Shown: piece after piece, positions 9,351 through 53,038 of the stretch
Layout of the letters: every line of letters starts with the position of its first letter
How positions within the stretch are numbered: the first letter of the stretch is position 1
IMG/VR virus record: IMGVR_UViG_3300028840_003717
Strand: one strand, 5' to 3'
From: a virus
DNA: 64,000 nt
Translations under genes and position numbers: made by a program
Notes under the pieces: model-generated
Told to the model about the DNA's origin: nothing
Database searches by the model: none
What the model saw: only the letters and a program-made list of their open reading frames with translations

Positions 9351-9352
9351 AT

Positions 9353-9729
9353 CTACGTGTCACGAATGACACAGCCACCATCCGGACGGGTCCTCCCTGT
9401 GTCGGAATATGTAGGACACGGGGTCACATTTCTGGCGAAAGTGATGATCTCTCGAAACGGCCAACAGCCGATCCCAGGGCCTGGAGGGGGGTTCTGACGG
9501 CCGGGAGAATCCCTGGTGTCATCCATCCTAGAATCTTTTTTCAGCGATTCTCAGCGATTCGGTGTTTCCTGGGCCTGTGATGGCCCTGTGAGGGCCGTTA
9601 GGCGAAACCCCCTCCCCCTGGGCCGTCCCGGCCTTCCGGCCCTTAGAGGGCCATTCTCGCGGCCCTATGAGCGAATGTGCTTTTCCCGCAGAAATTGGGG
9701 GCCGGTCCCCCCGTTTTTCTGGCACGGAC
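9353..9729 (+). repeat. Diverged inverted repeat, left copy (partner 52668-53038)
   Basis: Six blocks match the reverse complement of region B on one anti-diagonal (coordinate sums 62391-62399), including an 18/18 match 9486-9503 vs 52895-52912. Confidence 0.9.
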
Positions 9730-9779
9730 CCTGCTTCACCCCGTGGGGAAAAGTCATGTGATGTGAACCATTTGGAGCT

Positions 9780-10335
9780 GTGAAACCCACACGTGGTGAT
9801 GTGTCGCCATAGGTGGCCACGGTGGGGCCGTGTTCCCTACGTTGCCCACACGGTGGGGCCGTGTAGGACAAGGTGGCCACCGTGGCCACAGGACCTCCGG
9901 TGTGTGGAATGTGGCGGCGGAGGTGGTCAACGCGGGGACAGATCAACCACCTTGGAGCCAAACGTGGGACGGTGTGTGGAACGTGGCGGCCGGTGTCCCT
10001 CGAGGTGGGGCCGAGTAGGACGTGTCCCACATGGTGGGATGGTGTGGCCGTTGTGGTGACACGGCCTCCACCTGTGCTCCGCCTGGCCACCTTGGAGCTA
10101 CAGGTGGGAGCCTGGAGGACACGGCCGCCACGTGTGGGACACCATGAACATCCACCTCCGGTGTGGCCAGTTTGGCCACCATTGCATCCAAGGTGGGAGC
10201 CTGGTGGACATGGACGCTACAGGTGGGAGCTGTCCCACCTTGGGGCCGTGGGTGGGACAGGTAGGACCTCCGCCTCCAGGGTGGGAGCTGGGCTCACCGT
10301 GGAGGCGGAGGTAGGACACGGCCTCCAGGTGGAGC
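9780..10335. repeat. GTGG/CCAC-rich low-complexity non-coding tract with short direct repeats
   Basis: GCTACAGGTGGGAGC x2, GGTGTGTGGAAYGTGGCGGC x2, CGGTGGGGCCGTGT x2, CCACCTTGGAGC x2; no credible ORF. Confidence 0.7.
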
Positions 10336-10789
10336 CGGCGGGAGGAGGTCCCCTCCGGCCGGAGGCGGAGCCGGAGGTCCGGCCAGGGACCCCGGCCAGG
10401 GGGAGGGGGCCGTGGCCTTGGAGGCCGGGGCCGTCTCCGGGCCTCCGGCCGGCCGGAGGGGGGCTTGGGGGGTGGCCCCCCAAGGTGCCACAGAAGAACA
10501 TCAAGACCATGACCACGTTCATGTTGTGGTGTCTTCTATATAGACGTTCATAGGTGTTTCGCGTAGGCCGGCCCAGGCCATCATGATCGTTGGCCTTTCG
10601 GCCGAATCCTCCGGGCAACCATGGCGGATGACCGTGTGGAGGACAGGAGGGGGATCTCCGGGCCGTCCGTGGTGATCTCTCACGGACCATCCAAAACCTG
10701 ATTAGATTCACAAAGTTATCGTGACCAGTCCGGAGACCGTCAGAAGTTTTTTCGCGCCCATCCGTTTTTTTCTCCCCACCGTCCGGATT

Positions 10790-10819
10790 TATCGTCTAAG
10801 AATATATCGTCTAAGAATA
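10790..10819 (+). promoter_or_regulatory. Perfect 15-bp tandem repeat TATCGTCTAAGAATA x2 upstream of the early gene block
   Basis: Read directly; AT-rich island preceded by T-tracts; a related TATCCTCTAAG lies at 13495-13505. Confidence 0.6.
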
Positions 10820-10966
10820 GGGGTGATGACGCGCTACCTCCTGACCCTGACCTGGACAGCCCTCCTCCTGGCCACGTGGCCCATGGGAGGGGAGCTGGAC
10901 GAAGCCCCCCAACTTGATGGGGTGGCCCAGGTCCTCATGGTCCGGAGGGAGGAAAGGTAGAGACCC

Positions 10967-11299
10967 ATGGCCAACGCCACCACGATGACCACCCTGATCG
11001 CCTACACAATCGCCAACACCACCCTGTCCGATTGGGACCTTGTGGTGGCTTGCCTGTCCACGTCCGGGGACTTCCGGGACGCCTTCTCCCCCAGGGAGCA
11101 AGGCCGGATCAGGGAGCTGGCGGACGGGTTCGGCAACGTCCGGAGCCTCCCGGCTCACCAGCGGTTTGACCTGGTGTGGGACTGGTCCCACGTCCGGGAC
11201 TCCAGCGATGAGGCCGTCACCAAGATGGCCGGGGTCATCAAGGCCAAGGCGGCCAGGTTCCTCCTCCAGGACACCATCCGCCAGGCGGAGGGGGAGTAG
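10967..11299 (+). CDS. Hypothetical protein
   Basis: 110 aa, AGGTAGAG motif upstream, typical codon usage. Confidence 0.7.
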   Translation: MANATTMTTLIAYTIANTTLSDWDLVVACLSTSGDFRDAFSPREQGRIRELADGFGNVRSLPAHQRFDLVWDWSHVRDSSDEAVTKMAGVIKAKAARFLLQDTIRQAEGE

Positions 11300-11415
11300 T
11301 GGACCGGGGCCTCAACAGCCCCCAGGAGGGCCAGGCCGGGGTCACCGGCTCCGCCCTGACCCTCCTGGGGTCCGTGGAGGGCCTGGACATCAACCAAGGT
11401 AGAGGAGGCTTCGAC

Positions 11416-11604
11416 ATGACCGGACGCATCAACCAAGACACCGTGGCTCACACCCTGGACACCATCCCGGAGGGGACCCTGGTCCTCATCGTCCACCTGT
11501 CCGTGGACGTGGCGATCGTGGAGCTGGACGGAGACACCCTCCAGGTGGAGCCGGAGGCCGTGGACGGCCCCACCCTCCACGTCATCCATGAGGAGGTGGC
11601 GTGA
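11416..11604 (+). CDS. Small hypothetical protein (SH3-like beta strands possible)
   Basis: AGGTAGAGGAGG upstream of ATG 11416; stop overlaps the next start. Confidence 0.55.
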   Translation: MTGRINQDTVAHTLDTIPEGTLVLIVHLSVDVAIVELDGDTLQVEPEAVDGPTLHVIHEEVA

Positions 11605-12023
11605 TGACCAGCTCCATCTACATGGCCAAGGCCCAGCTCATCGTGGAGATCGGCAACATGGAGGCGGCCCTGGACACGGCCAGGAGGTGGGAGCTGGAGG
11701 AGGGACCAGGCCACCACAGGGCCATCCGTGTCCTCCTCCGGACGGTCAAGCTCCAGGTCACCAAGGTCCTCCGGCGGACGGCCCCGGAGGCCATGGAGCG
11801 GGCCAGGCTACGCAACATCCATACCCTGGTGGACTCCAGGCTGGGCCGGTTCCTGTCCGAGGCGGACCGGGAGGTCCTGGCCGGCCAGGTCAACCACGTC
11901 CTGGAGACGGAGGCCAGGAGGGTGGCGATCCTGGAGGCGGCGGCGGACGTCCCCACCATCCGGCCGGAGGGACCGTCCCGTGGCTTCGCCATCCCCCTCC
12001 CCTCGGACGCGGAGGTGGCGTGA
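11604..12023 (+). CDS. Hypothetical protein
   Basis: Coupled TGATG junctions at both ends. Confidence 0.65.
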   Translation: MTSSIYMAKAQLIVEIGNMEAALDTARRWELEEGPGHHRAIRVLLRTVKLQVTKVLRRTAPEAMERARLRNIHTLVDSRLGRFLSEADREVLAGQVNHVLETEARRVAILEAAADVPTIRPEGPSRGFAIPLPSDAEVA

Positions 12024-12313
12024 TGGCGTTCAACGCTCGACACTTCCAGGCCGGTGACGGGTGGTCCTGTGGCCGTCACCGGAGGGTCCAGGGCCGGAAG
12101 TCCACGGACGCCACCACGGACCCCGTGATGGTCAACTGTTTCCTGTGCCACCGGACCAGGGCCTACAAGGCGGCGGCGGCCAAGGTGGCCATGGAGGAGG
12201 AGGCCCGACACACCAGCCTCCGCCAGGCCGGCCTTGACCCGGCCAAGCCTGTGGCGGAGATGACACCGGAGGAGATCTTGGCCTACATGGCCACGGTGGG
12301 GGATGTTGGCTGA
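12023..12313 (+). CDS. Hypothetical zinc-finger protein
   Basis: H..WSCG..VNCFLC pattern; SD GGAGGTGG. Confidence 0.6.
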   Translation: MAFNARHFQAGDGWSCGRHRRVQGRKSTDATTDPVMVNCFLCHRTRAYKAAAAKVAMEEEARHTSLRQAGLDPAKPVAEMTPEEILAYMATVGDVG

Positions 12314-12367
12314 CATGGATGGACACAACGATCGTGACTGAGGCTCCAGGTGATCGGCCGTAGGAAT

Positions 12368-12652
12368 ATGGACGGCCGGGGCCTGGCGGCCTCCAGGAGG
12401 CCCGGGGAGCTGGAGGAGGGACACCGGCCCTTCCCGTCCACTCCGGACCTCCTGGAGACGGCCAGGGCCGCGGACAGCCTGGTCAAGGTGTGTTCGTGGT
12501 GTGGCCGATGGTGGGACGGGTCCTCCTGGGCCTCCTGGGAGCCGGGGCCAGGGGTCCAGTCCCATGGGATGTGTCCGGCCTGTCACCGGACGATGGAGGC
12601 GGAGCTGGAGCCAGCGGAGACCGGGGCGGACGGCCACCGGTCCAGGAGGTAG
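12368..12652 (+). CDS. Hypothetical protein (VCSWC..SHGMCPAC)
   Basis: CxxC..HxxCxxC motif common in small phage proteins. Confidence 0.55.
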   Translation: MDGRGLAASRRPGELEEGHRPFPSTPDLLETARAADSLVKVCSWCGRWWDGSSWASWEPGPGVQSHGMCPACHRTMEAELEPAETGADGHRSRR

Positions 12653-12656
12653 AGAC

Positions 12657-13157
12657 ATGACGGACGAACAGAGCAAGGCGGCGGAGGCGGAGCCACGGAC
12701 TATCCTGGTCCTTGTCCTTGGCCGGTGTGTCCTCCAGGGCGGCAAGCCTGGGGTGGAGCTGGCGGAGGTCACGGAGGAGGAGCTGGAGGCGGCCAGGGAC
12801 GGGGTCAAGCTGGAGCCCAGGGAGTCCATGGTCTACGGCCGGCCCTCCCTCAAAGCGTTCCAGGCCGGGGCCGGGAGCGTCTACAAGGTGGAGTCCCCCA
12901 AGGACGGGACCATCATCCCCAGCTCCGCCACGTTCCGGGGGCTGTGGCCGGATGAGGCCCACCGGGTCCTCCTCCAGGTCAAGGACAGGGCCTCCAGGAC
13001 GGAGCTGGAGCGGCGGAAGGCGGAGGCCAAGGCCAGGAGGCTCACTGGCCTGGAGGGCCTGGAGCCCATCCGGGACGCCTACCGTCAGGCCCGTGGCGTC
13101 CACAAGTCCATCATCCTGGCCCAGGTGGTGGCCTACATCACCGGAGGTGGACGGTGA
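12657..13157 (+). CDS. Hypothetical protein
   Basis: GGAGGTAGAGACATG start context; typical codon usage. Confidence 0.7.
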   Translation: MTDEQSKAAEAEPRTILVLVLGRCVLQGGKPGVELAEVTEEELEAARDGVKLEPRESMVYGRPSLKAFQAGAGSVYKVESPKDGTIIPSSATFRGLWPDEAHRVLLQVKDRASRTELERRKAEAKARRLTGLEGLEPIRDAYRQARGVHKSIILAQVVAYITGGGR

Positions 13158-13562
13158 GGCCCCGGGAGCCACGGCCCTGGTCCCTCATGTTGGACCTGGT
13201 GGCCCCCCTGGCCGGTGTCCTCCTGGGCCTGTCCATCGTGTCCTCCGTCCTGACCATCCTCCGGTCCTGTCACTGAAACCACCGATTATCACAGTGGTTC
13301 AAGGCGAAGTCCCCCACCCGATCGTCCTGAGGGTCCGTGTGGAGGACATCCGGCCGGCCGGGAGTGATCTCCACCACAGGTCACCCTGGCCGTCAGAAAG
13401 GCCAGTGAAGTCAACAGCCTCCGTCCGGAGCGTTCCGGATGGTGACCAAACACGTCCAGCCGGCCGTGTTTTTTTTCTTGTTTTTTTCGGGACCTATCCT
13501 CTAAGGTCAGGGCTGGACCTATTGACAACGTAGATGAGGCCCCACGGGGCCGGGAGGTAGAG

Positions 13563-14738
13563 ATGGCACGGAACACGGACACCAACGGCAAGGCGGCCAC
13601 CAAGGCCAAGGGACGCGGCTCCAGGGCAAAGAAGGCCAAGGCCACCAAGGCCACCAAGGCCCCGGCCCAGCCCTCCACACCGATCCAGGACTTCAAGGCC
13701 ACCGTCTCCGGTGAGGGTGAGGTGGTCAGCTACATCCTGGGCTGGGCCTTGAAGGGAGCCCAAGGGGACTACAACCACCTGGAGGAGCTGGCGGCCAAGG
13801 CCGGCCTGGACAGCTACCTCCCCTCCTGTCCCACCCATGAGGCCAGGCTCCGCCGGACCCTCACCAAGATCAAGTCCGGCCACGGGGTGACCTTCAAGCG
13901 GATGGACAAGGACCCGGACGCCCCCGGCTGGATCACCTACCGGCCGGAGAAGATCAAGGCCAAGGTCATCTCCAAGGCCACGGACGCCAGGTTCCGCCAG
14001 GACCAGGCCATCAAGACCGGCCGGGGTGTGGCCATCAACACGGACACCGGGGAGATGGTCCTGGAGGACACCGGCTCCGATCTCTTGAAGGCCGTGGCCC
14101 AGGTCTACGGGGACCTGGAGGGCCAATTCAACCATGACACCGTTTCCGGGTGGCTCCACCGGGTGATGGAGCGTCACTTCAACGCGGCCCCGTTCCCGGC
14201 CACCGGCGGAGCCCACATCATCCCGGCCGGCCCCAACACGGGGGAGGAGCTGGCGGCCCTCCGCGGGATCGTTGAGTCCATCGGCCGGTCCACCTTCGAC
14301 TATGAGGACTTCCGGAAGGCCACGGCCATGGCCTCCAACGCGGCCCAGGGCCTCCTGGGGGGACAGTGGACCAGCATGGTGGAGGAGCTGGAGGGGTTCC
14401 TGTCCAGCTCCCTGGAGGGTGACTTGACCCACCCAACCGGGTTCACGGCCAAGCTGGCCCAGGCGGAACAGCTCCGGAACAGGATGGCCCTCTACGGGAA
14501 GATCCTGGACACGGACAAGGCCGGGATGGAGAAGGCCCTCCAGGCCATGACGGACGCCACGGCCACCCTCCTGAAGGCCACCACGGAGGCCCGGTCCCTG
14601 AAGAAGGCCAAGGGGAGTGAGCTGGCCTCCAAGCTGGCCAAGGACACGGTGGACCAGGCGGCCAAGGACGCGGAGACCAAGCTCCAGGAGGCCAAGGCCC
14701 TGTGGTCCCCCGTCCACGGCAACGGCAACGGCAACTAA
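13563..14738 (+). CDS. Hypothetical protein with Lys/Ala-rich N-tail and helical C-terminus (possibly DUF6744-like), upstream of AAA-VWA pair
   Basis: 391 aa, strong start context; the DUF assignment is from recall of this gene neighbourhood and is unverified. Confidence 0.6.
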   Translation: MARNTDTNGKAATKAKGRGSRAKKAKATKATKAPAQPSTPIQDFKATVSGEGEVVSYILGWALKGAQGDYNHLEELAAKAGLDSYLPSCPTHEARLRRTLTKIKSGHGVTFKRMDKDPDAPGWITYRPEKIKAKVISKATDARFRQDQAIKTGRGVAINTDTGEMVLEDTGSDLLKAVAQVYGDLEGQFNHDTVSGWLHRVMERHFNAAPFPATGGAHIIPAGPNTGEELAALRGIVESIGRSTFDYEDFRKATAMASNAAQGLLGGQWTSMVEELEGFLSSSLEGDLTHPTGFTAKLAQAEQLRNRMALYGKILDTDKAGMEKALQAMTDATATLLKATTEARSLKKAKGSELASKLAKDTVDQAAKDAETKLQEAKALWSPVHGNGNGN

Positions 14739-14764
14739 GGACACGGAAAGGTAGAGGTAGAGAC

Positions 14765-16762
14765 ATGGCAACCAAGACCAAGACAACCAAGGTGAATGAG
14801 ACCAAGGCCCTGGCCTCCCTGGCGGACCTCCGGAGCCAGCTCCCCCAGGCCGTGATGGAGCGGCGGGACGTGGCGGACGGCCTCCTCATCTCCCTCCTGT
14901 CCGGGACCCACATCCTTCTCCTGGGCCTCCCCGGGACGGCCAAGTCACTCATCATCCGGCTCACCTGCAAGGCCATCACGGGAGCGGAGTGGTTCTCCTG
15001 GCTGTTGACCAAGTTCTCCACCCCGGAGGAGATCTTTGGACCCTACGATCTCCAGGGTCTCAAAGTGGGGAGCTACAAGCGGATCGTGGACGGCAAGCTC
15101 CCCACGGCTCACGTGGCCTTCTTGGATGAGATTGACGGCGCTTCGGCGCGACAGGTCTCCTTCGCCCGGTAACGGACGATGAAACAAGGCGGCTATATGC
15201 TGGAACACCCGAGTATCCGAAGCTACCTGAGCCTTACCAGCTCCGCTGTGGTGACAATGCTTCGGTGCGGACAATCAGCCGGGAAGTCGTGGTTGACCCC
15301 TCAGAGACTACACGCCGCCCCCCTTGCGAAGCATTCGAGCATGGCAGTTGACACAGAGTCCGTGGCCCTGGTGGCGACGGTCTTTTGTCCCACACTCAAC
15401 GCAGCAATCGTAATCCCTGGACCAGTATCCGTTGGCTCGTGTCTTCTTCGAGGCCATCAACTGACCTCGGTGTTGGTTGATGTGACAAGACCGACAGGAC
15501 GGGACGAGTCTTTCAGGATCGTGTCCAGGCTGGAGTCCCATCGCCTCGTTTGTGCGTCCGTCTCCATCAAGGTGGTGGACGATCTCAGCCTTGGCTCCAC
15601 AGAAATGACAGCGACCATCTGTTGTGGACAGGATGTCCTCACGGTCGGTTCCAAAGTGACGGGTTTCTCGTCTTTCCTTGGTTGTATCCTTGAAGGACGG
15701 ATCATCCTTCATGTTGTCGTATCGAGCCTTGGCTTTGGACTTGAGCTTGTCAGCGTTTTTTCTGTAGTAATCACGATTGTAGCTGCGTTGATCGAAAGCC
15801 ATGATACCTCCGTTGCATCATTGAATAACGCTACCACGAACGCAACGGTCTGCAAGGGTGAAGATATAGTCCAGTCCCCATGGCGACATGGGGTGGCCTA
15901 CTGCTTCAAGGCCAACTCCGCCATCCTCAACGCCCTCCTGACCATCCTGGAGGAGCGGCTGTTCCACGATGGGACGGCGGCCCACCGGACCCCCCTCCTG
16001 ACCCTGGTGGGGGCCTCCAATGAGCTACCGGAGGATGAGTCCCTGGCGGCCCTCCATGACCGTTTCCTCCTCCGGTTCTGGACGGACTACCTCCAGGACG
16101 ATGACAACTTCGTGGACCTCCTGGACCCGGCCTTTGACCCCACAACCAAGGTCACGGCCACCATCTCCCTGGAGGAGCTGGCCCACCTCCAGGCCAAGGT
16201 CCGGACCGTCACCGTCAGCCGGGAGATCCGTGAGACCATGCTGGCCATCCGCCGGGACCTGGCGGCGGACGGTGTGGTGGCGTCCGATCGCCGGTGGAAG
16301 GCCGCGATCCGGGGCCTCCAGGCCAAGGCCCTCCTGGAGGGACGTGACCACGTGGTGACCAGTGACCTCCTCCTCCTCATCAACATCCTGTGGGAGACCA
16401 GGGATGAGCTGGCCAAGGTCCGGGACGTGGTGGGCCAGGCGGCGGACCCGATCCTGGCGGACGCCCTGGAGCTGGCCGATGACGCCAAGGCCACCCTGAA
16501 GGACATCCGGGACCAGGCCCCCCAGGACGCCAGCTCCCTGGACGATCGGCTGGCCTTTGTCAAGGTCATCATGGAGGGCTCCGGCTCCCTGAAGGCCACC
16601 ACGGACGCGATCTACTCCCGCCTGGGCCGGAGTGGCATGACCCTGGACACGGCCACCCCGGAGGTCCAGGAGGCCATGGGCTCCGCCCTCCGGACACAGG
16701 AGGAGCTGGAGCGGATGGCCATGGCCTACTCCATGGGCCAGGTCAACGGGGTGGCCCGATGA
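14765..16762 (+). CDS. MoxR/RavA-family AAA+ ATPase split by a group I intron (exon 1 14765-15132, exon 2 15904-16762; 408 aa spliced)
   Basis: Walker A LLGLPGTAKS; the exon join AT|C restores AFLDEI-FKANSAILNALLTILEER, followed by GASNELPE and ALHDRFLLR, all RavA-like. Confidence 0.9.
15133..15903 (+). ncRNA. Group I self-splicing intron (771 nt)
   Basis: 5' exon ends in U and pairs with IGS GUCUC (15155-59) via U.G; P ATATGCTGGAA 15195; Q AATCAGCCGG 15273; R TCAGAGACTACA 15301; S AAGATATAGTCC 15861; P8 CCCTTGC/GCAAGGG; P9 CCCCATG-GCGA-CATGGGG; terminal G 15903. Confidence 0.92.
15308..15802 (-). CDS. Intron-encoded HNH homing endonuclease, antisense to the intron
   Basis: CHFC..VHHLDGD..SCRSCHINQH HNH/zinc core plus C-terminal CVEC..HGLCVNC finger; own SD GGAGGT; lower GC than flanks. 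Confidence 0.85.
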   Translation of the reverse strand: MAFDQRSYNRDYYRKNADKLKSKAKARYDNMKDDPSFKDTTKERRETRHFGTDREDILSTTDGRCHFCGAKAEIVHHLDGDGRTNEAMGLQPGHDPERLVPSCRSCHINQHRGQLMASKKTRANGYWSRDYDCCVECGTKDRRHQGHGLCVNCHARMLRKGGGV

Positions 16763-18321: not shown

Positions 18322-18403
18322 CCTCCTCCTCCTGATACCTCCCGATATTGCCAAGAAAACCCGGACCGGGACCGGATCTGTCCGGACGGTGTGGTTGAAT
18401 CTC

Positions 18404-18434: not shown

Positions 18435-18455
18435 CCATGGAGGAGGTGGAAACGT

Positions 18456-44426: not shown

Positions 44427-44435
44427 CCCCGGCCA

Positions 44436-44717: not shown

Positions 44718-44722
44718 AGACG

Positions 44723-45794: not shown

Positions 45795-46548
45795 CATCCT
45801 GGACAAGCTGGAGGGGCTGTTCCGCTACATCACCCTCCACCTGGAGGAGGGGACCACGGAGGAGGTGGACCTGGAGGATGTGGCCACGTGGCTGGAGGCG
45901 GCCATGGACACCATCCGCCAGGGACGTGAGGACATGGACCGGGTGGTCAACAGGGCGGCCTCCCTCCAGGACATGGTCAAGGACCTCCGGCGGGAGGTGG
46001 GCCAGCTCCAGGGTGACCAGGTGGACGCGGCCGGTGAGCTGGCCATCCCCCTCCCGGAGCCAGGGACGAACACGGCCAAGCTGTTGTCCGCCAACGTCCA
46101 GCTCCGCCGGGAGCGGGACGGCCTCCAGGCGGAGCTGGCCACCCACCGGGCCATCTCCACACAGGCCGTGGCTGTCCTCCACCAGCTCCACGTCCAGGAG
46201 GGCCTGGACCTGGACGGGGAGGTCACCCTCCTCATGGCCAGGGTGAGGGTGGCCTCCGGCGGAGGGTGTGGGACTTGTCCCCTCCGGAGGACCCTGGCCG
46301 TGGCGTTCCAGGCCAGGAGGGGGGACTCCCCGGTCCGGTCCTCCTGTGGCCATCCGGAGATGGCCGTCCATGATCACCTGGAGGCGGACGTCACCAGGAG
46401 TCAACAGGACGCTGGTCCGGCTCCCGTGTGGTGTCCCCTCCGTGGTCAGCCGGAGGACCCGGCGGCGGAGCCTCCGGATGACCGGACTGAGGACACGGAC
46501 CCCGGACACACCCCGTCCGGTATCCCTTGGGGTGGAGGGATGGGATGA
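45787..46548 (+). CDS. Coiled-coil protein with C-terminal Cys motif
   Basis: CGTCPL..CGHP..PVWCPLR. Confidence 0.6.
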   Translation: MGDILDKLEGLFRYITLHLEEGTTEEVDLEDVATWLEAAMDTIRQGREDMDRVVNRAASLQDMVKDLRREVGQLQGDQVDAAGELAIPLPEPGTNTAKLLSANVQLRRERDGLQAELATHRAISTQAVAVLHQLHVQEGLDLDGEVTLLMARVRVASGGGCGTCPLRRTLAVAFQARRGDSPVRSSCGHPEMAVHDHLEADVTRSQQDAGPAPVWCPLRGQPEDPAAEPPDDRTEDTDPGHTPSGIPWGGGMG

Positions 46549-46853
46549 CGGCCAGGGCGGAGGCCCAGCTCCGGCTAGACGTGGCCCATCTCCGCCGGGA
46601 GCTGGACCAGGCGGAGACCACGGCGGAGCTGGCCAGGGAGGGCCAACGGCAAGCGGAGGCCCAGCTCCAGGTCCTGGAGGCCAGGGTGGAGGAGCTGACG
46701 GCCCAGCTCCGGGACGCCAGGGAGACCGTGGCCCAGGCTGTGACCAGGGATGTTCGGCCGGTCCCCACGGACGCCCACCAGGAGGTGGCCCGTCTCCGGG
46801 CCAAGGTGACGGAGCTGGAGGCCCAGCTCCAGGAACGCGGAGGTGATCGATGA
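46545..46853 (+). CDS. Small coiled-coil protein
   Basis: Heptad pattern; coupled to neighbours. Confidence 0.6.
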   Translation: MTARAEAQLRLDVAHLRRELDQAETTAELAREGQRQAEAQLQVLEARVEELTAQLRDARETVAQAVTRDVRPVPTDAHQEVARLRAKVTELEAQLQERGGDR

Positions 46854-47086
46854 GGTGGCTGGTGATGACGGCGGCCGTGGCCCTCTTGGCTTGTCCAGGC
46901 GGAGCGGCCGTGTGTGAACAGCTCCGGAGCCGGTGTGACGGCAACGTGGCCCAGGTGTGCAACTCCCACGGCCGGTGGGAGCCTGTCATGGACTGTGACC
47001 AGGTGGAGGGCCAGGACATGGCCTGGGCCTGTGGCATGGAGGAGGAGGAGGCCACGTGTCTCCCGGTGGAGGAGGTGGCTCCATGA
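46850..47086 (+). CDS. Small secreted Cys-rich (lipo)protein
   Basis: Signal MRWLVMTAAVALLAC; SRCDGNVAQVC..W..DC..C..C. Confidence 0.7.
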   Translation: MRWLVMTAAVALLACPGGAAVCEQLRSRCDGNVAQVCNSHGRWEPVMDCDQVEGQDMAWACGMEEEEATCLPVEEVAP

Positions 47087-47676
47087 CCGTGGTGAACCCG
47101 GACGTGGTCCGTGGCCTGTGGGACCACATGGTGGCCCACTATGACGCCAGGGTGATGGACAAGGCCGATTCGGAGGACATGGAGCTGGTGGCCAGGTTTC
47201 TGGACCAGCTTGGGGTGATGGACGGGGAGACGTTCCTCCGCCGATACACCACCACGATCGGCCGGACCATCTATGTCCCGTTCCAGATCGGGGTGGATCA
47301 GGGACGCCACTCCCTCCACGGCCAGGTCCGGCTGTGTGCCCACGAATTCCAACACGTGGTCCAACACATCCGGGAGCCGGGACGCTATGAGCTGGAATAC
47401 CTGACGGACACGGCGGCCAGGGCCAGGTTGGAGGCGGAGGCTTTCCGCTCCAACATGGAGCTGGAGTGGTTCCTCACTGGCCGGCTGTTGAGGCCCATGG
47501 ACCTGGCGGACAACCTGGTGGCCTATGCTTGCACGGACGCGGACGTGGCCGTGGCGGCCAAGGCCCTGTCCATGTCCTCCAGGGTGGTGTCCAAGGGAGG
47601 GGTCATCAACGAAGCCTCCAAGGTGGCGATCGCCTACTTGGAGGACCAGGGCCTCCTGTCCGCCGGGAGGGTGTGA
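47083..47676 (+). CDS. Zincin-like metallopeptidase (DUF4157-like)
   Basis: TTTIGRTIY..AHEFQHVVQ..EAEA. Confidence 0.65.
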   Translation: MTVVNPDVVRGLWDHMVAHYDARVMDKADSEDMELVARFLDQLGVMDGETFLRRYTTTIGRTIYVPFQIGVDQGRHSLHGQVRLCAHEFQHVVQHIREPGRYELEYLTDTAARARLEAEAFRSNMELEWFLTGRLLRPMDLADNLVAYACTDADVAVAAKALSMSSRVVSKGGVINEASKVAIAYLEDQGLLSAGRV

Positions 47677-48236
47677 TGGCGGAGGTGGTGGTGGTGGTCC
47701 TCAACGGGTGGGGGTCCAGCTCCAGGCGGCGGGAGACCAGGACGGCGACCATGGCCAGGGAGGTGACCAAGGGCCACGTGGCGGAGGGACGTTTCCTTGG
47801 CCTCCGGGCCATGCTGGGGTGGAGCCGGAGCCGGAGGGTCCGCCGGTTCATCCTCCGCCACCAGAACCCTCACCGGAGCCTCCTCCTGGTGGGGAAGTCC
47901 CTGGGGGCCAGGAACATGGTGTCCAGGGTCCTCAACAGGATGGCCACCCCCCTGGGCTATCGCCGGGTGGGCCTGGTCACCATCGATCCCTGTTGGCCCA
48001 CCAGGTGGGACCTCACCCCCAACCTCAACAGGGCCGTCCTGAAGCTGACGGCCACGGTGGACCAGGCCACCAACTTCATGGCGGTCCTCCCCCAGGACCA
48101 ACAGGCCGGGGCCATGGTTCACGGTCCCCGGGTGGTCAACGTCCCCCTGTCCGGTCCTGACCACTTCACGATCGTCCAGGCCCCGGAGGTCCGAGCGGAG
48201 CTGGAGCGGATGGCCCTGGAGCTGGTGACCCCATGA
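47676..48236 (+). CDS. Alpha/beta-hydrolase-fold protein
   Basis: VVLNG; nucleophile elbow LVGKSLG; VTIDP; C-terminal DHFTI. Confidence 0.65.
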   Translation: MAEVVVVVLNGWGSSSRRRETRTATMAREVTKGHVAEGRFLGLRAMLGWSRSRRVRRFILRHQNPHRSLLLVGKSLGARNMVSRVLNRMATPLGYRRVGLVTIDPCWPTRWDLTPNLNRAVLKLTATVDQATNFMAVLPQDQQAGAMVHGPRVVNVPLSGPDHFTIVQAPEVRAELERMALELVTP

Positions 48237-48469
48237 CGGACACGGCCAACATGACCACGGATGACAAGCTGGACCTGATCATCAAGGACCTCCGATCGAT
48301 CAAGCGGAGGCTTGTGGTCCTGGAGTCCAACCTGGACGTGATCCGGGAGGGGTTCCTGTCCCACCGGGACCGGCTGGCCTGTTTGGAACGGGAGGCCAAT
48401 GGCCGGGTGGCCACCCCCACCCCGGCCCCCGTTGCTCCCCTGGGGGAGGTGGCCGATGAGGCCGGGTGA
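48233..48469 (+). CDS. Small coiled-coil protein
   Basis: KLDLIIKDLRSIKRRLVVLE heptads. Confidence 0.6.
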   Translation: MTDTANMTTDDKLDLIIKDLRSIKRRLVVLESNLDVIREGFLSHRDRLACLEREANGRVATPTPAPVAPLGEVADEAG

Positions 48470-48713
48470 TGAGCTGGTCCTCCTGGCCATCATCGTGGCG
48501 GCCGGCCTGGCGGCCATGGTCCTGGCCCACCTCCAGGAGGTGGTCACCTGGGCCGTGGAGGTGGTGGCCGGCCTGGCCCTCATCGTCCTGGGGGTGGTCA
48601 CCGTGGCCCTCCTGGCCATGAGGGCCGGCATCCTGTGGGTCAGGGAGGCGGCTGTCCGCCTCCGTGTGTCCCGGAGGCCAGCTCCCCCGGCCCTGGACCC
48701 CCCACACCGTTGA
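48456..48713 (+). CDS. Small membrane protein (about 2 TM)
   Basis: Long hydrophobic stretch followed by a basic tail. Confidence 0.55.
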   Translation: MRPGDELVLLAIIVAAGLAAMVLAHLQEVVTWAVEVVAGLALIVLGVVTVALLAMRAGILWVREAAVRLRVSRRPAPPALDPPHR

Positions 48714-48807
48714 GGCCGTCCTGGGCCGTCCTTGGGCCCACCGTTGACGTGTCCCACTTTGGAACACATGAACCCACGTGGTAGGGTTATGTGAGACAGG
48801 AGGCCCC

Positions 48808-49038
48808 GTGGCGATCAAGGTAGAGGCTGACACCCTTCAAGGCTCCGTGACCAAGCTGGCGTCCATGGTCCGCCAGGGGGACACCCCCAAGGACGGGACC
48901 TGGAGGCTGGACTTTGGAGCCCCTGACGGACAACGGGGGACCGTGGACGTCCCGGACAACCTGGCCAGGGAGATGGTGGCCACGGCCTCCGGTGAGGAGG
49001 ACCTGGTCCGCCACGTGTCCACGTTCGCCGGCCTGTAG
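48808..49038 (+). CDS. Hypothetical protein (GTG start)
   Basis: SD AGGAGG before GTG 48808. Confidence 0.55.
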   Translation: MAIKVEADTLQGSVTKLASMVRQGDTPKDGTWRLDFGAPDGQRGTVDVPDNLAREMVATASGEEDLVRHVSTFAGL

Positions 49039-49063
49039 ACGGGCCACCAGGTAGAGGCTGACC

Positions 49064-49714
49064 ATGACCAAGAAGTCCATCCCCCACGGCAAAAAGAGCC
49101 GGGGGAAACACGGGAACAAGAAGCCAGGCAAGCCCCCGGCCGGGGGAGGCCCCAACCGTGTCCAAACCTCCAGGGCGGAGCGGCTGTTCCGGCTGAAGGT
49201 GGTGGAGGAGGCCATGGTGTCCGGCAAGCGAGCGGCGGCCGTCCAGGAGGCCCTGGCCAAGGCTGGACGTGTGGTCCCGGCCCGGACCGTGGGTGACTAC
49301 ATCCGGGCCGTCAGGCTGAAGTGGGAGGAGGAGGACAAGCTCCACAGCCGGTCAACGCGCCAACGCCAGCTCCGGGACCTCTACGCCACGGCGGAGGAGA
49401 TGAAGGCCAACAGGGCCTGGGCCTCATGGGTGAGCTGTCAAAAACTGATCGCGGACCTGGAGGGTAACTTCCCCAAGGACGACGGACCCACAGCCACGGA
49501 CGCCCCGGAGGACTTCGCCGGGTGGAGCCGGGAGGAGCTGGACGCCTACATAGCCTCCGGGGGGGAGGCGGAGCCCTCCTGGATCAAGGCGGCCCGTGAG
49601 GCCGGCCAGGCCCCGTCCCGTGGCAACGGCCATGATCGGGACTGGCCCGATGACGGAGACGGCGGCGGAGGGGACTCCGGCGGGATGCCCACCCCATCGG
49701 ACCTCCTCCACTGA
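49064..49714 (+). CDS. Putative terminase small subunit
   Basis: Immediately upstream of TerL; basic N-tail; HTH-like RTVGDYIRAVR; helical C-terminus. Confidence 0.6.
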   Translation: MTKKSIPHGKKSRGKHGNKKPGKPPAGGGPNRVQTSRAERLFRLKVVEEAMVSGKRAAAVQEALAKAGRVVPARTVGDYIRAVRLKWEEEDKLHSRSTRQRQLRDLYATAEEMKANRAWASWVSCQKLIADLEGNFPKDDGPTATDAPEDFAGWSREELDAYIASGGEAEPSWIKAAREAGQAPSRGNGHDRDWPDDGDGGGGDSGGMPTPSDLLH

Positions 49715-49722
49715 GGTCCAGG

Positions 49723-52644
49723 ATGGCCAAGCCCAAGACCACCAAGGCCAAGACGGCCAAGCCCAAGGCCCCACGGGTCCGGCCCAGGGCCGTGGATGAA
49801 CACGCGGAGGACTGGTATTCGGAGCGGCCGGAGTCCCCGGAGGCGGAGGCCATGAGGCGGCGGAGGGAGGTGGCCAAGGCCGTCAGGACCTCCCGTGTCC
49901 GCCAGGCCAGGGAGGACCCCAACGCCTTCGCGGAATATGCCTTTGAGGACTCCGTCACTGGAAACAAGCTCCGCCAGGCCAAGGTCCACCGTGACCTCCA
50001 GGAGGCCATCCGGGACAGGGACGTGGACCACCTCATGGTGGAGTTTCCGCGGAACCACGGCAAGTGTTGTGCGGCTGGAACGTTGATTCATCTTGAGGAT
50101 GGTAGCCTTGTCCCTGTCGAGGTTTTCGACAGTGGCCGGGTTCTCACAATGGACGACACGTTCAGGATCGTTAGTGGTGACGCCACGTGTCAGTCCAATG
50201 GGATCAAGGACTGCATTACCGTTTTGACGAAGACCGGTCGGGAGCTGGTGGTTTCACATGACCATCCGTTTCGGACTGGCAATGGATGGACAGCGGCGGA
50301 GGACCTGGACGCTGGTGTTCGTGTGGCTGTGATGAATGGATGCTCTGTCCCTGTCCAAGGAGACATGGACGAGCTGGACGCCTATGTCATTGGGGTCATG
50401 GTTGGAGACGGTGGGACGACGGATAGGGCTAGGGTGACGTGTTCTGATCAGGCTGTGTTGAACCAGGTGAGACAATGGTCCGATCGTCATGGATGGACGG
50501 TGTCTCATGTTGATGGTTACGACTATTCCATCACAGGTCACAAGGGAGCGAAGTCAGGAGGGCCAACCCACTATTTGAGAGACATGGGTCTTATGGGATG
50601 CAGATCTCATAACAAGACTATCCCGCATCAAGTATTAGTTGGTGGTGACCAAGCTAGGGCCGCGTTCCTTGCTGGATATTTCGACGCTGACGGGACGGTG
50701 AATAACAAGGATGGCGGTTCGGCTGAATTTTATTCCGTGAACAAGCCTTTGTTGGTGACTGTCCAGGACGTTCTGGCAAGGTTTGGGATTGTTTCAACCA
50801 TCTCTAGAAAGCGAGGGATGTATCGGAAGAAACACCACCTGTCATGGAGGCTGACTATCCGTGGCGATGGTTTGGACAGGTTCCGCAATATAGTAAGGCC
50901 AAGGGGGGACAAGGCTGACAGGATTGATTCTCTGGACTGTGGAGGAGGCGACGGCAATGGGGCCAAGCTGGATCTGTTTCCTGATGAGTTGTGGCGGCCC
51001 CATGTCAAAGCAACTGGTCTGTCCTTGCGTCAACAGGGTCTTCGGATTGACACAAAGAACAGGATCTCCAGACCAAAGCTCCGGAGGCTGGCGGAGCTGG
51101 ACGATAATGACAAGCTTCGTCAGGTGGCCAATGGTCAAGTCTTTTGGGATGAGGTTACGTCAGTTGAGCCTGTTGGCCCACGTGAGACCTATGATCTGAC
51201 CGTCTCCGGAACACACAACTTCGTTTCTCATGGATTCGTGACTCACAACACCACACAGGTTGAGATCTCCATCCTGTGGCTGTTGGGCCAGGACCCTAAC
51301 CTCCGGTTCAAGATCGTGTGTGAGTCGGACAACAAGGCCCAGGAACGTGTCCAACACTTGGCCCAACACATCATGGGGAACAGCCGGATCAGGGACGTGT
51401 TCCCCCACCTCCGTCCGGCCAGGCGGGGGGACTGGACCAAGAAGAAGATCGTGGTGGACCGGCCCCGGCTCATGAGGGACGTCTCCATTGAAGCCTGTGG
51501 GATTCAGACGGCGGCCACCGGCGGACGGGCTGACTACCTGGTGGCGGATGACCCGGTGGGGAGGCGGAACGCCCTGGAGATCCCCAAGCTCCGGGAGACC
51601 GTCAAGAGGGCCTGGCATTCAGATTGGTTGAACCTGTTGGAGCCCACCGGCCGGACCATCTACGTCTACACCCCGTGGCACACAGCGGACCTGTCCCACA
51701 AGCTCAAACGGAACCCGGTCTATCGTGTGTTCTCCCGTCCGATCGGACCCAAGATGGAGCCGGTGTGGGAGGCCAAGTGGCCCGTGGAGAAGCTGGAGGC
51801 CAAGCTGGCGGAGGTGGGTCAACGGGAGTTTGATCGTGGCTACCGGCTGATCGCCTTGTCCGGGGAGTATGCCACCGTCCAGGACTCATGGGTCCAATAC
51901 TGGACGGAGGAGCCCAACCTGGCGGACCTGATCGTGTTCACGGCCTATGACCTGTCCACCGGTGAGGGGGAGGACTTCTTCTCATCGGTGACGGTGGGCC
52001 TGGACGGCCGTGACCTGGGCCAGGCCCAGCCCAGGATCTACGTCCTGGACGCTTGGCATGGACACTTGACGTTCATGGCCCAGGTGGGAGCTGTCCTCCA
52101 GGAGGCCAAGCTGTGGCTCCCCCAGGCCGTGGCCCTGGAGGCCGTTCAGTATCAAGCGGTCCTCCCCCAGGTCCTCCAGGCGGCCCGTGATGACAAGCGG
52201 ACGGAGCTGACGGCGGACATTGTCCCGGTCCGTCCCCGGCTGTCCAAGGCCCTCCGGCTGTCCGCTATCACTCCCCTCCTGGAGCTGGGCCGTGTCTCTT
52301 TCAACCCGGCCCTGGACCCTGGACGGGGGCTCAAAGGGGACCTGGTGGAGGAGCTGACCATGTTCCCCCTGGCGGCCCATGATGACCTGGTGGACGCCTT
52401 TGTCTACGCCACGGCCCTGGCCGTGGACTACTCTATCCGGGCCGGTGGGAGGGGAGTTTCCGTGTCCAGCTACGGGGCGGACCGGTCCCGTGGTCAGGCT
52501 CCGGAGGCTCCAGTCCAGGCCCCGGATGGGGCCATTCTGACCTCCACCGGCCAGGCCAATGACGTCCCCGATGAGGCCGTGAGGGAGGCCGTGGAGGGGG
52601 GTTCAGTCCCTCCGATCTACTCCTGGGCCAACCTTGGGGATTGA
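49723..52644 (+). CDS. terL: Terminase large subunit with intein
   Basis: FPRNHGK|TT Walker A, GGRADYLVADDP Walker B, YTPWH, nuclease AYDLS..LEAVQYQ..FP.AAHDDLVDAF. Confidence 0.93.
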   Translation: MAKPKTTKAKTAKPKAPRVRPRAVDEHAEDWYSERPESPEAEAMRRRREVAKAVRTSRVRQAREDPNAFAEYAFEDSVTGNKLRQAKVHRDLQEAIRDRDVDHLMVEFPRNHGKCCAAGTLIHLEDGSLVPVEVFDSGRVLTMDDTFRIVSGDATCQSNGIKDCITVLTKTGRELVVSHDHPFRTGNGWTAAEDLDAGVRVAVMNGCSVPVQGDMDELDAYVIGVMVGDGGTTDRARVTCSDQAVLNQVRQWSDRHGWTVSHVDGYDYSITGHKGAKSGGPTHYLRDMGLMGCRSHNKTIPHQVLVGGDQARAAFLAGYFDADGTVNNKDGGSAEFYSVNKPLLVTVQDVLARFGIVSTISRKRGMYRKKHHLSWRLTIRGDGLDRFRNIVRPRGDKADRIDSLDCGGGDGNGAKLDLFPDELWRPHVKATGLSLRQQGLRIDTKNRISRPKLRRLAELDDNDKLRQVANGQVFWDEVTSVEPVGPRETYDLTVSGTHNFVSHGFVTHNTTQVEISILWLLGQDPNLRFKIVCESDNKAQERVQHLAQHIMGNSRIRDVFPHLRPARRGDWTKKKIVVDRPRLMRDVSIEACGIQTAATGGRADYLVADDPVGRRNALEIPKLRETVKRAWHSDWLNLLEPTGRTIYVYTPWHTADLSHKLKRNPVYRVFSRPIGPKMEPVWEAKWPVEKLEAKLAEVGQREFDRGYRLIALSGEYATVQDSWVQYWTEEPNLADLIVFTAYDLSTGEGEDFFSSVTVGLDGRDLGQAQPRIYVLDAWHGHLTFMAQVGAVLQEAKLWLPQAVALEAVQYQAVLPQVLQAARDDKRTELTADIVPVRPRLSKALRLSAITPLLELGRVSFNPALDPGRGLKGDLVEELTMFPLAAHDDLVDAFVYATALAVDYSIRAGGRGVSVSSYGADRSRGQAPEAPVQAPDGAILTSTGQANDVPDEAVREAVEGGSVPPIYSWANLGD
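50065..51249 (+). mobile_element. LAGLIDADG intein (395 aa) in the TerL Walker A motif
   Basis: Starts at Cys (CCAAGT), SHDHPF block B, motifs IGVMVGDG and FLAGYFDADG, ends TYDLTV..HNFV..THN followed by Thr; lower GC than flanks. Confidence 0.95.
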
Positions 52645-52667
52645 GGGTTCACGGCCACACCCCCAAA

Positions 52668-53038
52668 GTCCGTGCCAGAATTTCGGGGTGTCAGGCCCCC
52701 AAATTCGCGTGATTCTTCGATAAATCGCCACCAGCCCCCCCAGGACGGCTCCTAACAGCCGGAAGGCTCCACCCCCCTGGGGGGCTACCTGAAGACCCTT
52801 CCGGAGGTTCTAGGCCCCTTCTCGGCTTGCGGCGGCCCCACCTCTCAGGATCGCTGAAAAGGAATTTTATGGGCCACCATAGCCGGGACTTTTTCGGCCG
52901 TCAGAACCCCCCTGTGGGGCCTGGAATCGCCAAGTGGCCTCCGGATGGTGATCACCACCGGCCGGAAAAAGGTGAACCCTGTCCTGACATATGCCGACAT
53001 ATCCCACACAAAAAAACCGTGTCAAACGAGACACGTAG
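52668..53038 (-). repeat. Diverged inverted repeat, right copy (partner 9353-9729)
   Basis: See left copy; 32/40 identity for 9690-9729 vs reverse complement of 52668-52707. Confidence 0.9.

What the first reader, a model, noticed from the sequence alone, without database searches (positions are those of the whole stretch)
9353..53038. A ~375-bp diverged, essentially indel-free inverted repeat brackets the 43-kb non-structural block
Seen: six blocks in 9353-9729 match the reverse complement of 52668-53038 on one anti-diagonal. They are CTACGTGTC-N6-GACAC (9353-72 / 53019-38), TGTCGG(A/C)ATATGT..GGACA (9400-27 / 52972-99), an 18/18 GGGGGGTTCTGACGGCCG (9486-9503 / 52895-912), TTTTCAGCGAT (9538-48 / 52850-60), GCCTTCCGGC (9631-40 / 52758-67) and a 32/40 block (9690-9729 / 52668-707). 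Coordinate sums stay within 62391-62399. Both copies are non-coding, contain A/T tracts, and sit at module borders (tail end, and immediately after terL). Inference: fixed spacing with diverged linkers suggests a geometry-constrained nucleoprotein site or a structured RNA. Candidates are paired packaging or replication signals, polar ter-like sites, or ends of an invertible segment that would flip the early + terminase arc relative to the head/tail arc. No feature above explains it.
Basis: partly seen in the sequence, partly recalled or inferred. Interest (0 to 1): 0.8.

Follow-up and report, generated by a model that had tools for sequence, protein, structure and literature searches.

The report
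Conserved post-terminase noncoding phage element
The two inverted 375-base stretches are real copies of a fixed-length non-coding element that related uncultured phages always carry just after their DNA-packaging gene; the second, flipped copy is optional, so it is probably a control or docking site and not the ends of a flippable genome segment.

Summary
The inverted repeat is real. All six blocks sit at the stated coordinates, and the local alignment scores 65 against 12.8±1.5 for dinucleotide shuffles. No reading frame is shared, so it is non-coding.

The window is 64 kb of an ~86.4-kb, 67% GC, myovirus-like metagenomic phage with nearly all genes on one strand.

The same element (core 371-377 nt) occurs in three further phage lineages. 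It always lies 9-90 bp after the terL stop, in the same orientation, and is followed by a 550-650 bp G-rich gene-free tract.

The inverted copy after the last tail gene is also present in one relative. A close relative that keeps the terL copy lacks it, so the element works singly.

Copies cluster by genome, not by locus. Contigs from two metagenomes are collinear, and no recombinase was found among ~50 scanned ORFs. The invertible-segment idea is therefore not supported.

Folding potential exceeds column shuffles on both strands (z about -5), but covariation does not exceed the null. There is no Rfam match.

My best reading (~0.35) is a fixed-geometry protein-binding DNA platform at the border of the two gene arcs. 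The flanking tracts share an operator-like palindrome. Rivals are a structured RNA, a packaging site, and an origin or fork barrier.

The parts
9260..9350 (+). Three to four tandem ~22-nt repeats (GGCCCTCATCGGGGCCTCC) between the last tail gene and arm A. On the minus strand they read GGAGG-N5-ATG. They have no counterpart at arm B.
   Evidence: TRF; sequence
9351..9755 (+). Arm A: the optional second copy of the element, in 'A-forward' orientation. It is the fastest-evolving copy.
   Evidence: nhmmer with the 4-sequence profile, E 2e-91; alignments; long branch in the tree
9357..9372 (.). Palindrome/hairpin GTGTC-N6-GACAC at the outer end of arm A. The stem is conserved in all copies and the loop is variable.
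   Evidence: This palindrome occurs only at 9357 and 53019 in the window
9486..9503 (+). 18-nt block identical between the two arms of this phage (GGGGGGTTCTGACGGCCG). It is not conserved in the other lineages.
9530..9560 (.). Central A/T tract plus the conserved box TTTTNAGCRAT (here TCAGCGATTC occurs twice).
9696..9720 (+). 16-nt GGGG..CCCC hairpin followed by T5. It is terminator-like only in this copy. The hairpin itself is conserved in all six copies, with register shifts.
9719..9734 (+). CTGGCACGGACCCTGC: the conserved CTGGCAY-N5-YTG box. In the tail-end arms it has the GG-N10-GC spacing of a sigma-54 -24/-12 element and points towards the early genes.
9756..10470 (+). R1: gene-free G-rich tract (41% G, 28% C) with GGTGGGAGC repeats about 30 bp apart (10192-10280) and operator-like palindromes at 10022-10034 (-) and 10130-10142 (+).
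10480..10820 (+). AT-richer stretch (49-58% GC) with a 15-bp x2 direct repeat at 10790-10819, just before the first early ORFs. It is the likely early promoter region and is conserved in L013 and L014.
49723..52644 (+). terL with a LAGLIDADG intein (973 aa); the last gene of the early + terminase arc.
   Evidence: Pfam. The intein-less terL of relatives is 571-588 aa
52653..53042 (-). Arm B: the copy found in all four lineages, always directly after terL and always in this orientation.
   Evidence: nhmmer E 1e-99; orthologous copies at L011 5926-6313, L021 11777-12164 and L022 4547-4946
52663..52700 (.). Arm B inner end: the CTGGCAC-N5-TTGG box (no GC at '-12') sits in the loop of a CCCCAAA/TTTGGGG stem. 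Next to it is the GGGG..CCCC hairpin (52685-52700).
53019..53034 (.). GTGTC-N6-GACAC palindrome of arm B. On the minus strand it is followed by T7, which makes it terminator-like.
53043..53690 (+). R2: gene-free G-rich tract (38% G) with three operator-like palindromes (53284-53296 +, 53307-53319 -, 53324-53336 +) and a 16-bp perfect inverted repeat (53401-53416 / 53462-53477).
53691..54596 (-). Amidase_2 endolysin on the minus strand. Relatives carry a longer Amidase_2 + PG_binding_1 lysin on the plus strand at this place.
   Evidence: relatives

Best explanation
Each arm is a copy of a ~375-390 bp, fixed-length, multi-box, non-coding cis element. I read it as a protein-bound, probably bent DNA platform that marks the border between the phage's two co-directional gene arcs: early + terminase, and lysis + head + tail. 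SHOWN: the primary copy lies directly after terL in all four lineages. It is followed by a G-rich gene-free tract. In this phage that tract carries the same operator-like palindrome (ACGTGTGGGACAC) as the tract behind arm A. The tail-end copy is an optional, inverted duplicate that stays more similar to the terL copy of its own genome than to tail-end copies of other genomes. INFERRED: phage or host DNA-binding proteins occupy the conserved boxes (the GTGTC-N6-GACAC palindrome, the GTGATGATC box, the central A/T tract, the long-range inverted boxes, and CTGGCAY). The fixed spacing lets them form one looped or wrapped complex. Such a complex works in either orientation, like an enhancer or architectural element. 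It closes the preceding arc and sets up expression of the next arc, and possibly also DNA entry for replication or packaging proteins. The two copies do not act as recombination partners.
For: The repeat is real and significant and non-coding. Position and orientation are conserved: L014/L011 has the same inverted pair (score 117 vs 13.5 for shuffles), and terL-adjacent copies exist in L021 and L022. Core length is 371-377 nt at 47-73% identity. Between L011 and L021 the arm is 89-97% identical with no gaps, while the adjacent tract is 28-81% identical with indels. The GTGTC-N6-GACAC palindrome is unique to the arms. Five of ten matches to the operator-like motif fall in R1/R2, which make up 1.36 of 64 kb. 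R1 and R2 are similar in direct orientation (z 7.2). A solo copy exists in L021 while L013 lacks the tail-end cassette. Arms cluster by genome with 100% support. With G-U pairs disallowed there is no strand preference (G:T 9 vs A:C 5), and compensatory pairs are not above the null (16 vs 15.9). Both results fit double-stranded DNA symmetry at least as well as an RNA.
Against: No binding protein was identified and no binding data exist. The folding potential is significantly above column shuffles (z -5.2 and -4.8). The 16-nt GGGG..CCCC hairpin keeps its shape through register shifts, which an RNA or single-stranded DNA structure explains more naturally. The early arc can do without the element (L013), so 'arc border' is not a sufficient description. 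The flipped orientation of the second copy is tolerated by this model but not explained by it. The operator motif was shown only for this phage; R tracts of relatives are not alignable.
Confidence: 0.35

Rival explanations
1. Structured non-coding RNA or UTR element. The arm is transcribed and folds into a multi-hairpin RNA. All genes are on one strand, so read-through transcripts of the two inverted copies would be mutually complementary. They could pair in trans (an 18-nt perfect block here, a ~45-nt near-perfect block in the relative) and so couple the ends of the two arcs.
For: The alifold energy is well below column-shuffled alignments on both strands (z -5.2 and -4.8). Single-sequence MFE z-scores are -1.6 to -3.1. 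Hairpins keep their positions while their sequence changes. There is a terminator-like hairpin + T5 at the 3' end of arm A. Blocks of perfect identity are genome-specific.
Against: Compensatory pairs are not above the shuffle null and the covariation term is about 0 or positive. There is no strand preference. No promoter or terminator is consistent across copies. There is no Rfam match at gathering or relaxed thresholds. The solo copy shows that trans pairing cannot be the core function.
Confidence: 0.25
2. Packaging recognition site (pac/cos-like) for the terminase. It would be a multi-box site with a central bend next to the terminase genes. The inverted copy would be a second or pseudo site that starts packaging in the other direction.
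For: The element is always adjacent to terL in four lineages whose terL is 67-94% identical to L011's. It has fixed length, a central A/T tract, a conserved GATC-containing box and inverted boxes on either side. The unusual ~1-kb gene-free break between terL and the lysis/portal genes occurs in every relative.
Against: Known pac and cos sites usually lie upstream of or inside terS, not after terL (general knowledge). The ends of the ENA and Logan contigs correspond to window positions of about 12.7 kb and about 37.5-37.9 kb, not to the arms. No raw reads were available to map termini.
Confidence: 0.12
3. Replication element of the SPP1 oriL/oriR type. One copy would be, or would adjoin, the origin. 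The other would be a second initiator-binding site or polar fork barrier.
For: Two homologous non-coding sites lie far apart in one phage genome, as in SPP1, where oriR lies in a non-coding late segment and may stall forks (PMC6316719). Next to arm A there are iteron-like GGTGGGAGC repeats about 30 bp apart plus an AT-richer stretch. The arms lie 43.3 kb apart on a circle of about 86.4 kb.
Against: There are no iterons inside the arms. No initiator gene was recognised. GC skew does not change sign at either arm. In the L013/L021 phage the tail-end locus and arm B are 36.9 kb apart on a contig of 78.9 kb or more, so the near-antipodal placement is probably coincidence.
Confidence: 0.12
4. Ends of a site-specific invertible 43-kb segment that flips the early + terminase arc.
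For: The geometry of an inverted repeat bracketing a block.
Against: No Resolvase or Phage_integrase domain was found in ~50 scanned ORFs or in the precomputed Pfam hits of the loci. Whole-genome contigs of two metagenomes are collinear, and the only 'opposite strands' joint reported is the repeat itself. A relative carries a single copy. The arms are only ~63% identical, and the longest perfect match is 18 bp.
Confidence: 0.03
5. Decaying duplicate or relic of a small mobile cassette without present function.
For: The arm A + R1 cassette (~1.1 kb) is present in L014 and absent in L013, although the flanks are 79-94% identical. Arm A of the window is the fastest-evolving copy.
Against: There are no terminal inverted repeats or target duplications. 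L013 carries 240 bp of unrelated sequence in place of the cassette, not an empty site. Length and boxes are conserved over four lineages, and the arm is gap-free and 89-97% identical where the neighbouring tract has decayed. There are only two copies per genome and none elsewhere.
Confidence: 0.05

Closest known systems
Bacillus phage SPP1 oriL / oriR (PMC6316719)
   Same: Two homologous non-coding cis elements lie kilobases apart in one phage genome. One sits in a gene-free segment of the late region, and the second copy is thought to have a modulating role and not an essential one.
   Different: SPP1's elements are direct repeats plus an AT-rich unwinding element bound by gp38. Here the arms contain no iterons, no initiator is known, the copies are inverted, and the constant copy sits after terL.
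Lambda cos (cosQ-cosN-cosB with an IHF bend) and P1/SPP1 pac sites
   Same: A multi-box site of a few hundred bp with fixed spacing, a central bend-prone A/T tract, inverted protein-binding boxes and a GATC-containing box, located next to the terminase genes.
   Different: The site lies downstream of terL, not upstream of or within terS. A second inverted copy exists. No terminus or cut was mapped.
Sigma-54 enhancer-dependent promoter regions (UAS - bend - -24/-12)
   Same: CTGGCAC/T-N5-(C/T)TGC at one end of the tail-end arms has the GG-N10-GC spacing. Upstream of it lie palindromes and an A/T tract at fixed distance.
   Different: All four terL-adjacent copies read TTGG, not TTGC, and point into the 3' end of terL. 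No enhancer-binding ATPase (PF00158) was found. The host is unknown.
Site-specific invertible segments (Mu G, P1 C, Salmonella hin)
   Same: Inverted repeats bracket a block of genes.
   Different: Those segments are 1-4 kb with short, near-identical crossover sites and an adjacent invertase gene. Here the block is 43 kb, the arms are ~63% identical, there is no invertase, and a relative has a single copy.
Large ornate phage-associated non-coding RNAs (ROOL, GOLLD) in Rfam
   Same: Size class of hundreds of nt, intergenic in phages, with many hairpins.
   Different: No Rfam model matches even at E up to 5. Covariation is not demonstrable with six copies.

Membership tests
Site-specific invertible DNA segment | Inverted repeats at both ends of the segment | tested here: met
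Site-specific invertible DNA segment | A serine or tyrosine recombinase encoded by the element or genome | tested here: not met
   No such Pfam domain in ~50 window ORFs or in the precomputed hits for L010, L013, L014 and L021. Small ORFs and the roughly 9-10 kb of the genome that no fetched locus covers were not scanned.
Site-specific invertible DNA segment | Both orientations present in sequence data | tested here: inconclusive
   Only assembled contigs were available. The 86-kb and 28-kb contigs of two metagenomes are collinear with the window. Contigs drop minor isomers.
Site-specific invertible DNA segment | The two repeats occur as a pair | tested here: not met
   The L013/L021 contig has the terL copy only
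Described RNA family (Rfam 15) | A match to a covariance model | tested here: not met
   No hits at gathering thresholds over the window. Only chance-level hits (E 0.07 or higher, far below gathering scores) in either region
Structured RNA in general | Covariation supporting conserved helices | tested here: inconclusive
   Thermodynamic z about -5 on both strands, but compensatory pairs are 16 vs 15.9 in shuffles. There are only six copies from four lineages.
Sigma-54 promoter | GG at -24 and GC at -12, ten bases apart | tested here: inconclusive
   Met in both tail-end arms (winA CTGC, L014A TTGC). Not met in all four terL arms (TTGG)
Sigma-54 promoter | A cognate enhancer-binding AAA+ activator | tested here: not met
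   The only AAA+ proteins found are MoxR-type (AAA_5) and AAA_24. A host-encoded activator cannot be excluded.
Intrinsic terminator | G+C-rich hairpin followed by a U tract on the transcribed strand | tested here: inconclusive
   Met on the plus strand only in arm A of the window (9696-9720). On the plus strand the other copies have AUUUCG-like or A-rich tails
Iteron-type replication origin (SPP1/lambda-like) | Tandem initiator-binding repeats plus an adjacent AT-rich unwinding element | tested here: inconclusive
   No tandem repeats inside the arms. Repeats spaced about 30 bp apart and an AT-richer stretch exist only beside arm A
cos/pac packaging site | Genome termini or the first cut map to the site | not testable with these tools
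   Only Logan contigs were served, with no raw reads
MITE-like mobile element | Terminal inverted repeats, target-site duplication, multiple dispersed copies | tested here: not met
   Two copies per genome. No clean empty site in L013. No true copies in IMG/VR, JGI metagenome contigs or GTDB genomes: searches found nothing, and the hits match only the search pattern itself

The most novel reading that the evidence does not exclude
The two copies form a functional sense/antisense pair at the ends of the two co-directional transcription arcs, or alternatively an origin/barrier pair on opposite sides of the circle. Either way the optional inverted copy would tune the timing of the early-to-late switch or the mode of replication through direct pairing with, or competition against, the terL-adjacent copy. 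This would be a genome-scale regulatory device not described for tailed phages.
Probability: 0.12. Interest if true: 0.75.

Novelty: new variant of a known kind. Interest (0 to 1): 0.45.

Why it matters
The result defines a previously undescribed family of non-coding elements in a clade of uncultured high-GC ~80-90 kb myovirus-like phages. The element has fixed length, sits in a fixed place after the large terminase gene, has conserved boxes, and occurs in natural one-copy and two-copy variants. That contrast is a ready-made experiment for finding where such phages start late transcription, packaging or replication. None of these can be read from their genes, because most of the early ORFs scanned have no Pfam match. 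The result also removes a more dramatic but unsupported reading, a 43-kb invertible arc.

Tried and rejected
- **Public collections.** The 18-mer and two degenerate patterns of the conserved end box gave nothing in IMG/VR. They gave only chance hits in JGI metagenome contigs and GTDB genomes. INPHARED phages had no match in distant mode.
- **IMG/VR relatives.** Portal relatives there (L001, L002) are too distant and lack the element. The terL search found none.
- **More distant relatives.** L012 (portal 56% identical) and L018 (tail fibre N-terminus 52% identical) have no detectable copy.
- **Unavailable DNA.** The P0003 and P0127 lineages could not be fetched because the sample files are too large. 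Only their gene maps were seen; they show gene-free gaps of about 1 kb at the same two places.
- **Own genome.** No whole genome is held for the window, and the Logan record behind L013 cannot be searched directly.
- **RNA data.** No RNA holder was listed in either sequencing-run search.
- **Low-coverage relative.** Run X3 has no contig over 52520-53585. This carries no weight.
- **GC skew.** No sign change at the arms.
- **tRNA/tmRNA.** None in the window.
- **Sigma-70-type promoter scan.** No hit in either region.
- **Gene conversion test.** At sites where L011B and L021B differ, L014A matches its genome-mate 14:7, which is not significant.
- **Internal dyad symmetry.** Each arm against its own reverse complement is significant only in the relatives' arms.
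- **Earlier scan notes.** A search by sequence found no look-alike.

Full report
**1. Observation**

- A gapped local alignment of the two intergenic regions in inverted orientation covers 9400-9729 against 52999-52668 and scores 65. Five hundred dinucleotide-preserving shuffles give 12.8 ± 1.5 (maximum 20), and the direct orientation gives 14. The repeat is therefore real, at about 63% identity.
- It is not strictly indel-free. Small indels compensate one another, and the core (outer hairpin to the CTGGCAY box) measures 377 vs 371 nt.
- No reading frame is open or shared, and codon-position GC periodicity disappears between 9228 and about 10720. The arms are non-coding.

**2. Context**

- The window has 67% GC, and almost all genes are on the plus strand.
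- Pfam identifies terL with a LAGLIDADG intein at 49723-52644, a portal at 56209-58038, a primase-helicase, a PD-(D/E)XK nuclease, a MoxR-VWA pair and methyltransferases. Relatives show contractile-tail and baseplate genes (CIS_tube, GPD, gp25).
- The window's portal is encoded on an 86,668-bp ENA contig. Mapping a Logan contig of 86,055 bp onto the window closes a circle of about 86.4 kb.
- The map therefore has two co-directional arcs. Early + terminase genes run from about 10.8 to 52.6 kb. Lysis + head + tail genes run from about 53.7 kb round to 9.2 kb.
- The arcs are separated by two gene-free regions of 1.0-1.5 kb. Each begins with an arm and continues with a G-rich tract: R1 (9756-10470, 41% G) and R2 (53043-53690, 38% G).
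- R1 and R2 resemble each other in direct orientation (z 7.2). They share an operator-like palindrome, ACGTGTGGGACAC. Five of its ten matches at two mismatches or fewer fall in these 1.36 kb.

**3. Relatives**

Nothing similar is in INPHARED or IMG/VR, and the pattern hits in JGI metagenome contigs and GTDB genomes are chance matches. Relatives found through proteins were informative.

- *Phage from runs SRR33785011/12 (portal 67% identical).* It has the same pair. A ~390-bp element lies directly after the last tail gene (L014 11424-11823). It matches the reverse complement of the stretch directly after terL (L011 5926-6313), scoring 117 against 13.5 ± 1.2 for shuffles.
- *Phage on one 78.9-kb Logan contig (L013 + L021).* Its terL is 94% identical to L011's, and its tail and early flanks are 71-94% identical in nucleotides to L014. 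It has the terL-adjacent copy (L021 11777-12164, E 7.5e-86). At the tail end it lacks the whole ~1.1-kb arm + G-rich cassette, which is replaced by 240 bp of unrelated sequence.
- *A further lineage (L022, terL 67% identical to L011's).* It also has the terL-adjacent copy, followed by a GT-rich gene-free tract.
- *More distant relatives (L012, L018).* No copy was detected.
- *Lineages whose DNA could not be fetched.* Their gene maps show ~1-kb gaps at both places.
- *Copy number.* A profile search finds exactly two copies in the window and none elsewhere in the loci held.

In summary, the terL copy is constant in place and orientation in four lineages. The inverted tail-end copy is optional.

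**4. Anatomy and evolution**

- Six distinct copies align over about 400 columns, with core lengths of 371-377 nt.
- Read in the plus-strand orientation of arm A ('A-forward'), the conserved features are, in order:
  - a GTGTC-N6-GACAC palindrome, which is unique to the arms in the window;
  - a (T)GTC-rich box;
  - a GTGATGATC box;
  - inverted boxes about 190 nt apart that can pair;
  - a central A/T tract with TTTTNAGCRAT;
  - a variable-sequence hairpin around CCTYCYGG;
  - a 16-nt GGGG..CCCC hairpin whose inner stem shifts register between copies;
  - CTGGCAY-N5-YTG.
- In the two tail-end arms this last box reads (C/T)TGC and so has the GG-N10-GC spacing of a sigma-54 promoter facing the early genes. 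In all four terL arms it reads TTGG and lies in the loop of a CCCCAAA/TTTGGGG stem.
- A maximum-likelihood tree groups L014A with L011B + L021B (100% support) and the two window arms together. Copies thus cluster by genome, not by locus. This points to an old duplication homogenised within genomes, or to co-evolution with genome-specific factors. A direct test for conversion was not significant (14:7).
- Between L011 and L021 the arm is 89-97% identical without gaps. The tract behind it is 28-81% identical with indels.

**5. RNA or DNA?**

- Consensus folding energy is clearly below column-shuffled alignments on both strands (z -5.2 forward, -4.8 reverse). The number of compensatory pairs equals the shuffle mean (16 vs 15.9).
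- With G-U pairs disallowed, G:T and A:C mismatches in the helices are 9 and 5, which gives no strand call.
- Rfam has no match.
- Only arm A of the window ends in a proper hairpin + T5 on the plus strand.
- No RNA run was listed (no weight).
- The symmetry is therefore real, but the present data cannot say whether it is read as double-stranded DNA, RNA or single-stranded DNA.

**6. Inversion, replication, packaging**

- *Inversion.* Contigs of two metagenomes (86 kb and 28 kb) are collinear with the window. The only 'opposite strands' joint reported is the repeat itself. No recombinase domain was found. Together with the solo copy, this leaves the invertible-segment reading at a few per cent.
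- *Replication.* GC skew stays positive throughout. The arms are 43.3 kb apart on the ~86.4-kb circle, which is nearly antipodal. In the L013/L021 phage the corresponding distance is 36.9 kb of at least 78.9 kb, so I treat the antipodal placement as coincidence.
- *Packaging.* The site could not be tested because no raw reads were served.

**7. Reading**

- I commit, at about 0.35, to a fixed-geometry protein-binding DNA platform at the arc border. Together with the operator-bearing G-rich tract it forms the control region of the following arc. The tail-end copy is an optional inverted duplicate.
- What is shown: the reality of the repeat, its non-coding nature, its conservation in place, orientation and length, the solo copy, the shared operator motif, and clustering by genome.
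- What is inferred: protein binding, bending or looping, and the regulatory role.
- Rivals: structured RNA, including trans pairing of the two plus-strand transcripts (0.25); a pac/cos-like site (0.12); an SPP1-like second origin or fork barrier (0.12; PMC6316719); a relic of a mobile cassette (0.05); inversion ends (0.03).

**8. Comparison, novelty and verdict**

- The element belongs to no described family. The closest known systems are listed under Closest known systems, and the defining features tested are listed under Membership tests.
- It is probably one of the known kinds of phage cis element, in an unusual form: fixed after terL, with an optional inverted twin.
- It is of moderate interest. 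The natural one-copy and two-copy phages make its function directly testable.

Noticed in passing
window 10022-10142 and 53284-53336: The operator-like palindrome ACGTGTGGGACAC(GT) occurs two times in R1 and three times in R2, and practically nowhere else. This suggests one dimeric regulator controls the heads of both gene arcs.
   Followed up: partly
window 53691-54596 (-): The endolysin (Amidase_2, 301 aa) is on the minus strand. Three related lineages carry a 413-421 aa Amidase_2 + PG_binding_1 lysin on the plus strand at the same place, and the more distant L012 carries a 381-aa one. This is a replaced and inverted lysis gene next to arm B.
   Followed up: partly
window 49723-52644: terL carries a LAGLIDADG intein (973 aa). 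The closest relatives' terL genes (571-588 aa) lack it, while several more distant terL homologues of 927-991 aa carry intein domains.
   Followed up: partly
window 53401-53416 / 53462-53477: A perfect 16-bp inverted repeat (GACGGTGGAGCCAGGG / CCCTGGCTCCACCGTC) with a 45-nt spacer lies inside R2. Relaxed Rfam searches picked it up as miRNA-like hairpins.
   Followed up: no
window 9260-9350: Three to four tandem copies of GGCCCTCATCGGGGCCTCC. On the minus strand each reads as a Shine-Dalgarno sequence plus ATG (GGAGG-N5-ATG). A similar word lies in the 3' end of terL (about 52560).
   Followed up: no
window 14702-16762: A MoxR-type AAA+ ATPase is split. Profile positions 3-110 are in ORF 14702-15172, and positions 106-203 resume at residue 242 of ORF 15179-16762. 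This fits an intervening element, as another note of this scan proposes. Rfam at gathering thresholds reported no intron.
   Followed up: partly
window 60419-62722 (L010 14418-16514): One product carries both a D12-class adenine methyltransferase domain and a Peptidase_S78_2 prohead protease domain. In relative L012 the homologous 1654-aa product also has a DNA ligase domain.
   Followed up: no
L013 11416-11654 vs L014 11416-12550: A close relative has replaced the whole arm + G-rich cassette at the tail end with 240 bp containing a 10-bp G+C-rich hairpin (GGTGGAGGCT..AGCCTCCACC). The AT-rich early promoter region just downstream is 94% identical.
   Followed up: yes
window 10790-10819: An exact 15-bp x2 direct repeat, TATCGTCTAAGAATA, lies immediately upstream of the first early ORFs, in the only AT-rich stretch of the region.
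   Followed up: no
window 9541 vs 52853 (arm centres): The arms are 43.3 kb apart on a circle of about 86.4 kb, within ~0.2 kb of exactly opposite. In the L013/L021 phage the corresponding distance is 36.9 kb of at least 78.9 kb, so this is probably coincidence.
   Followed up: partly
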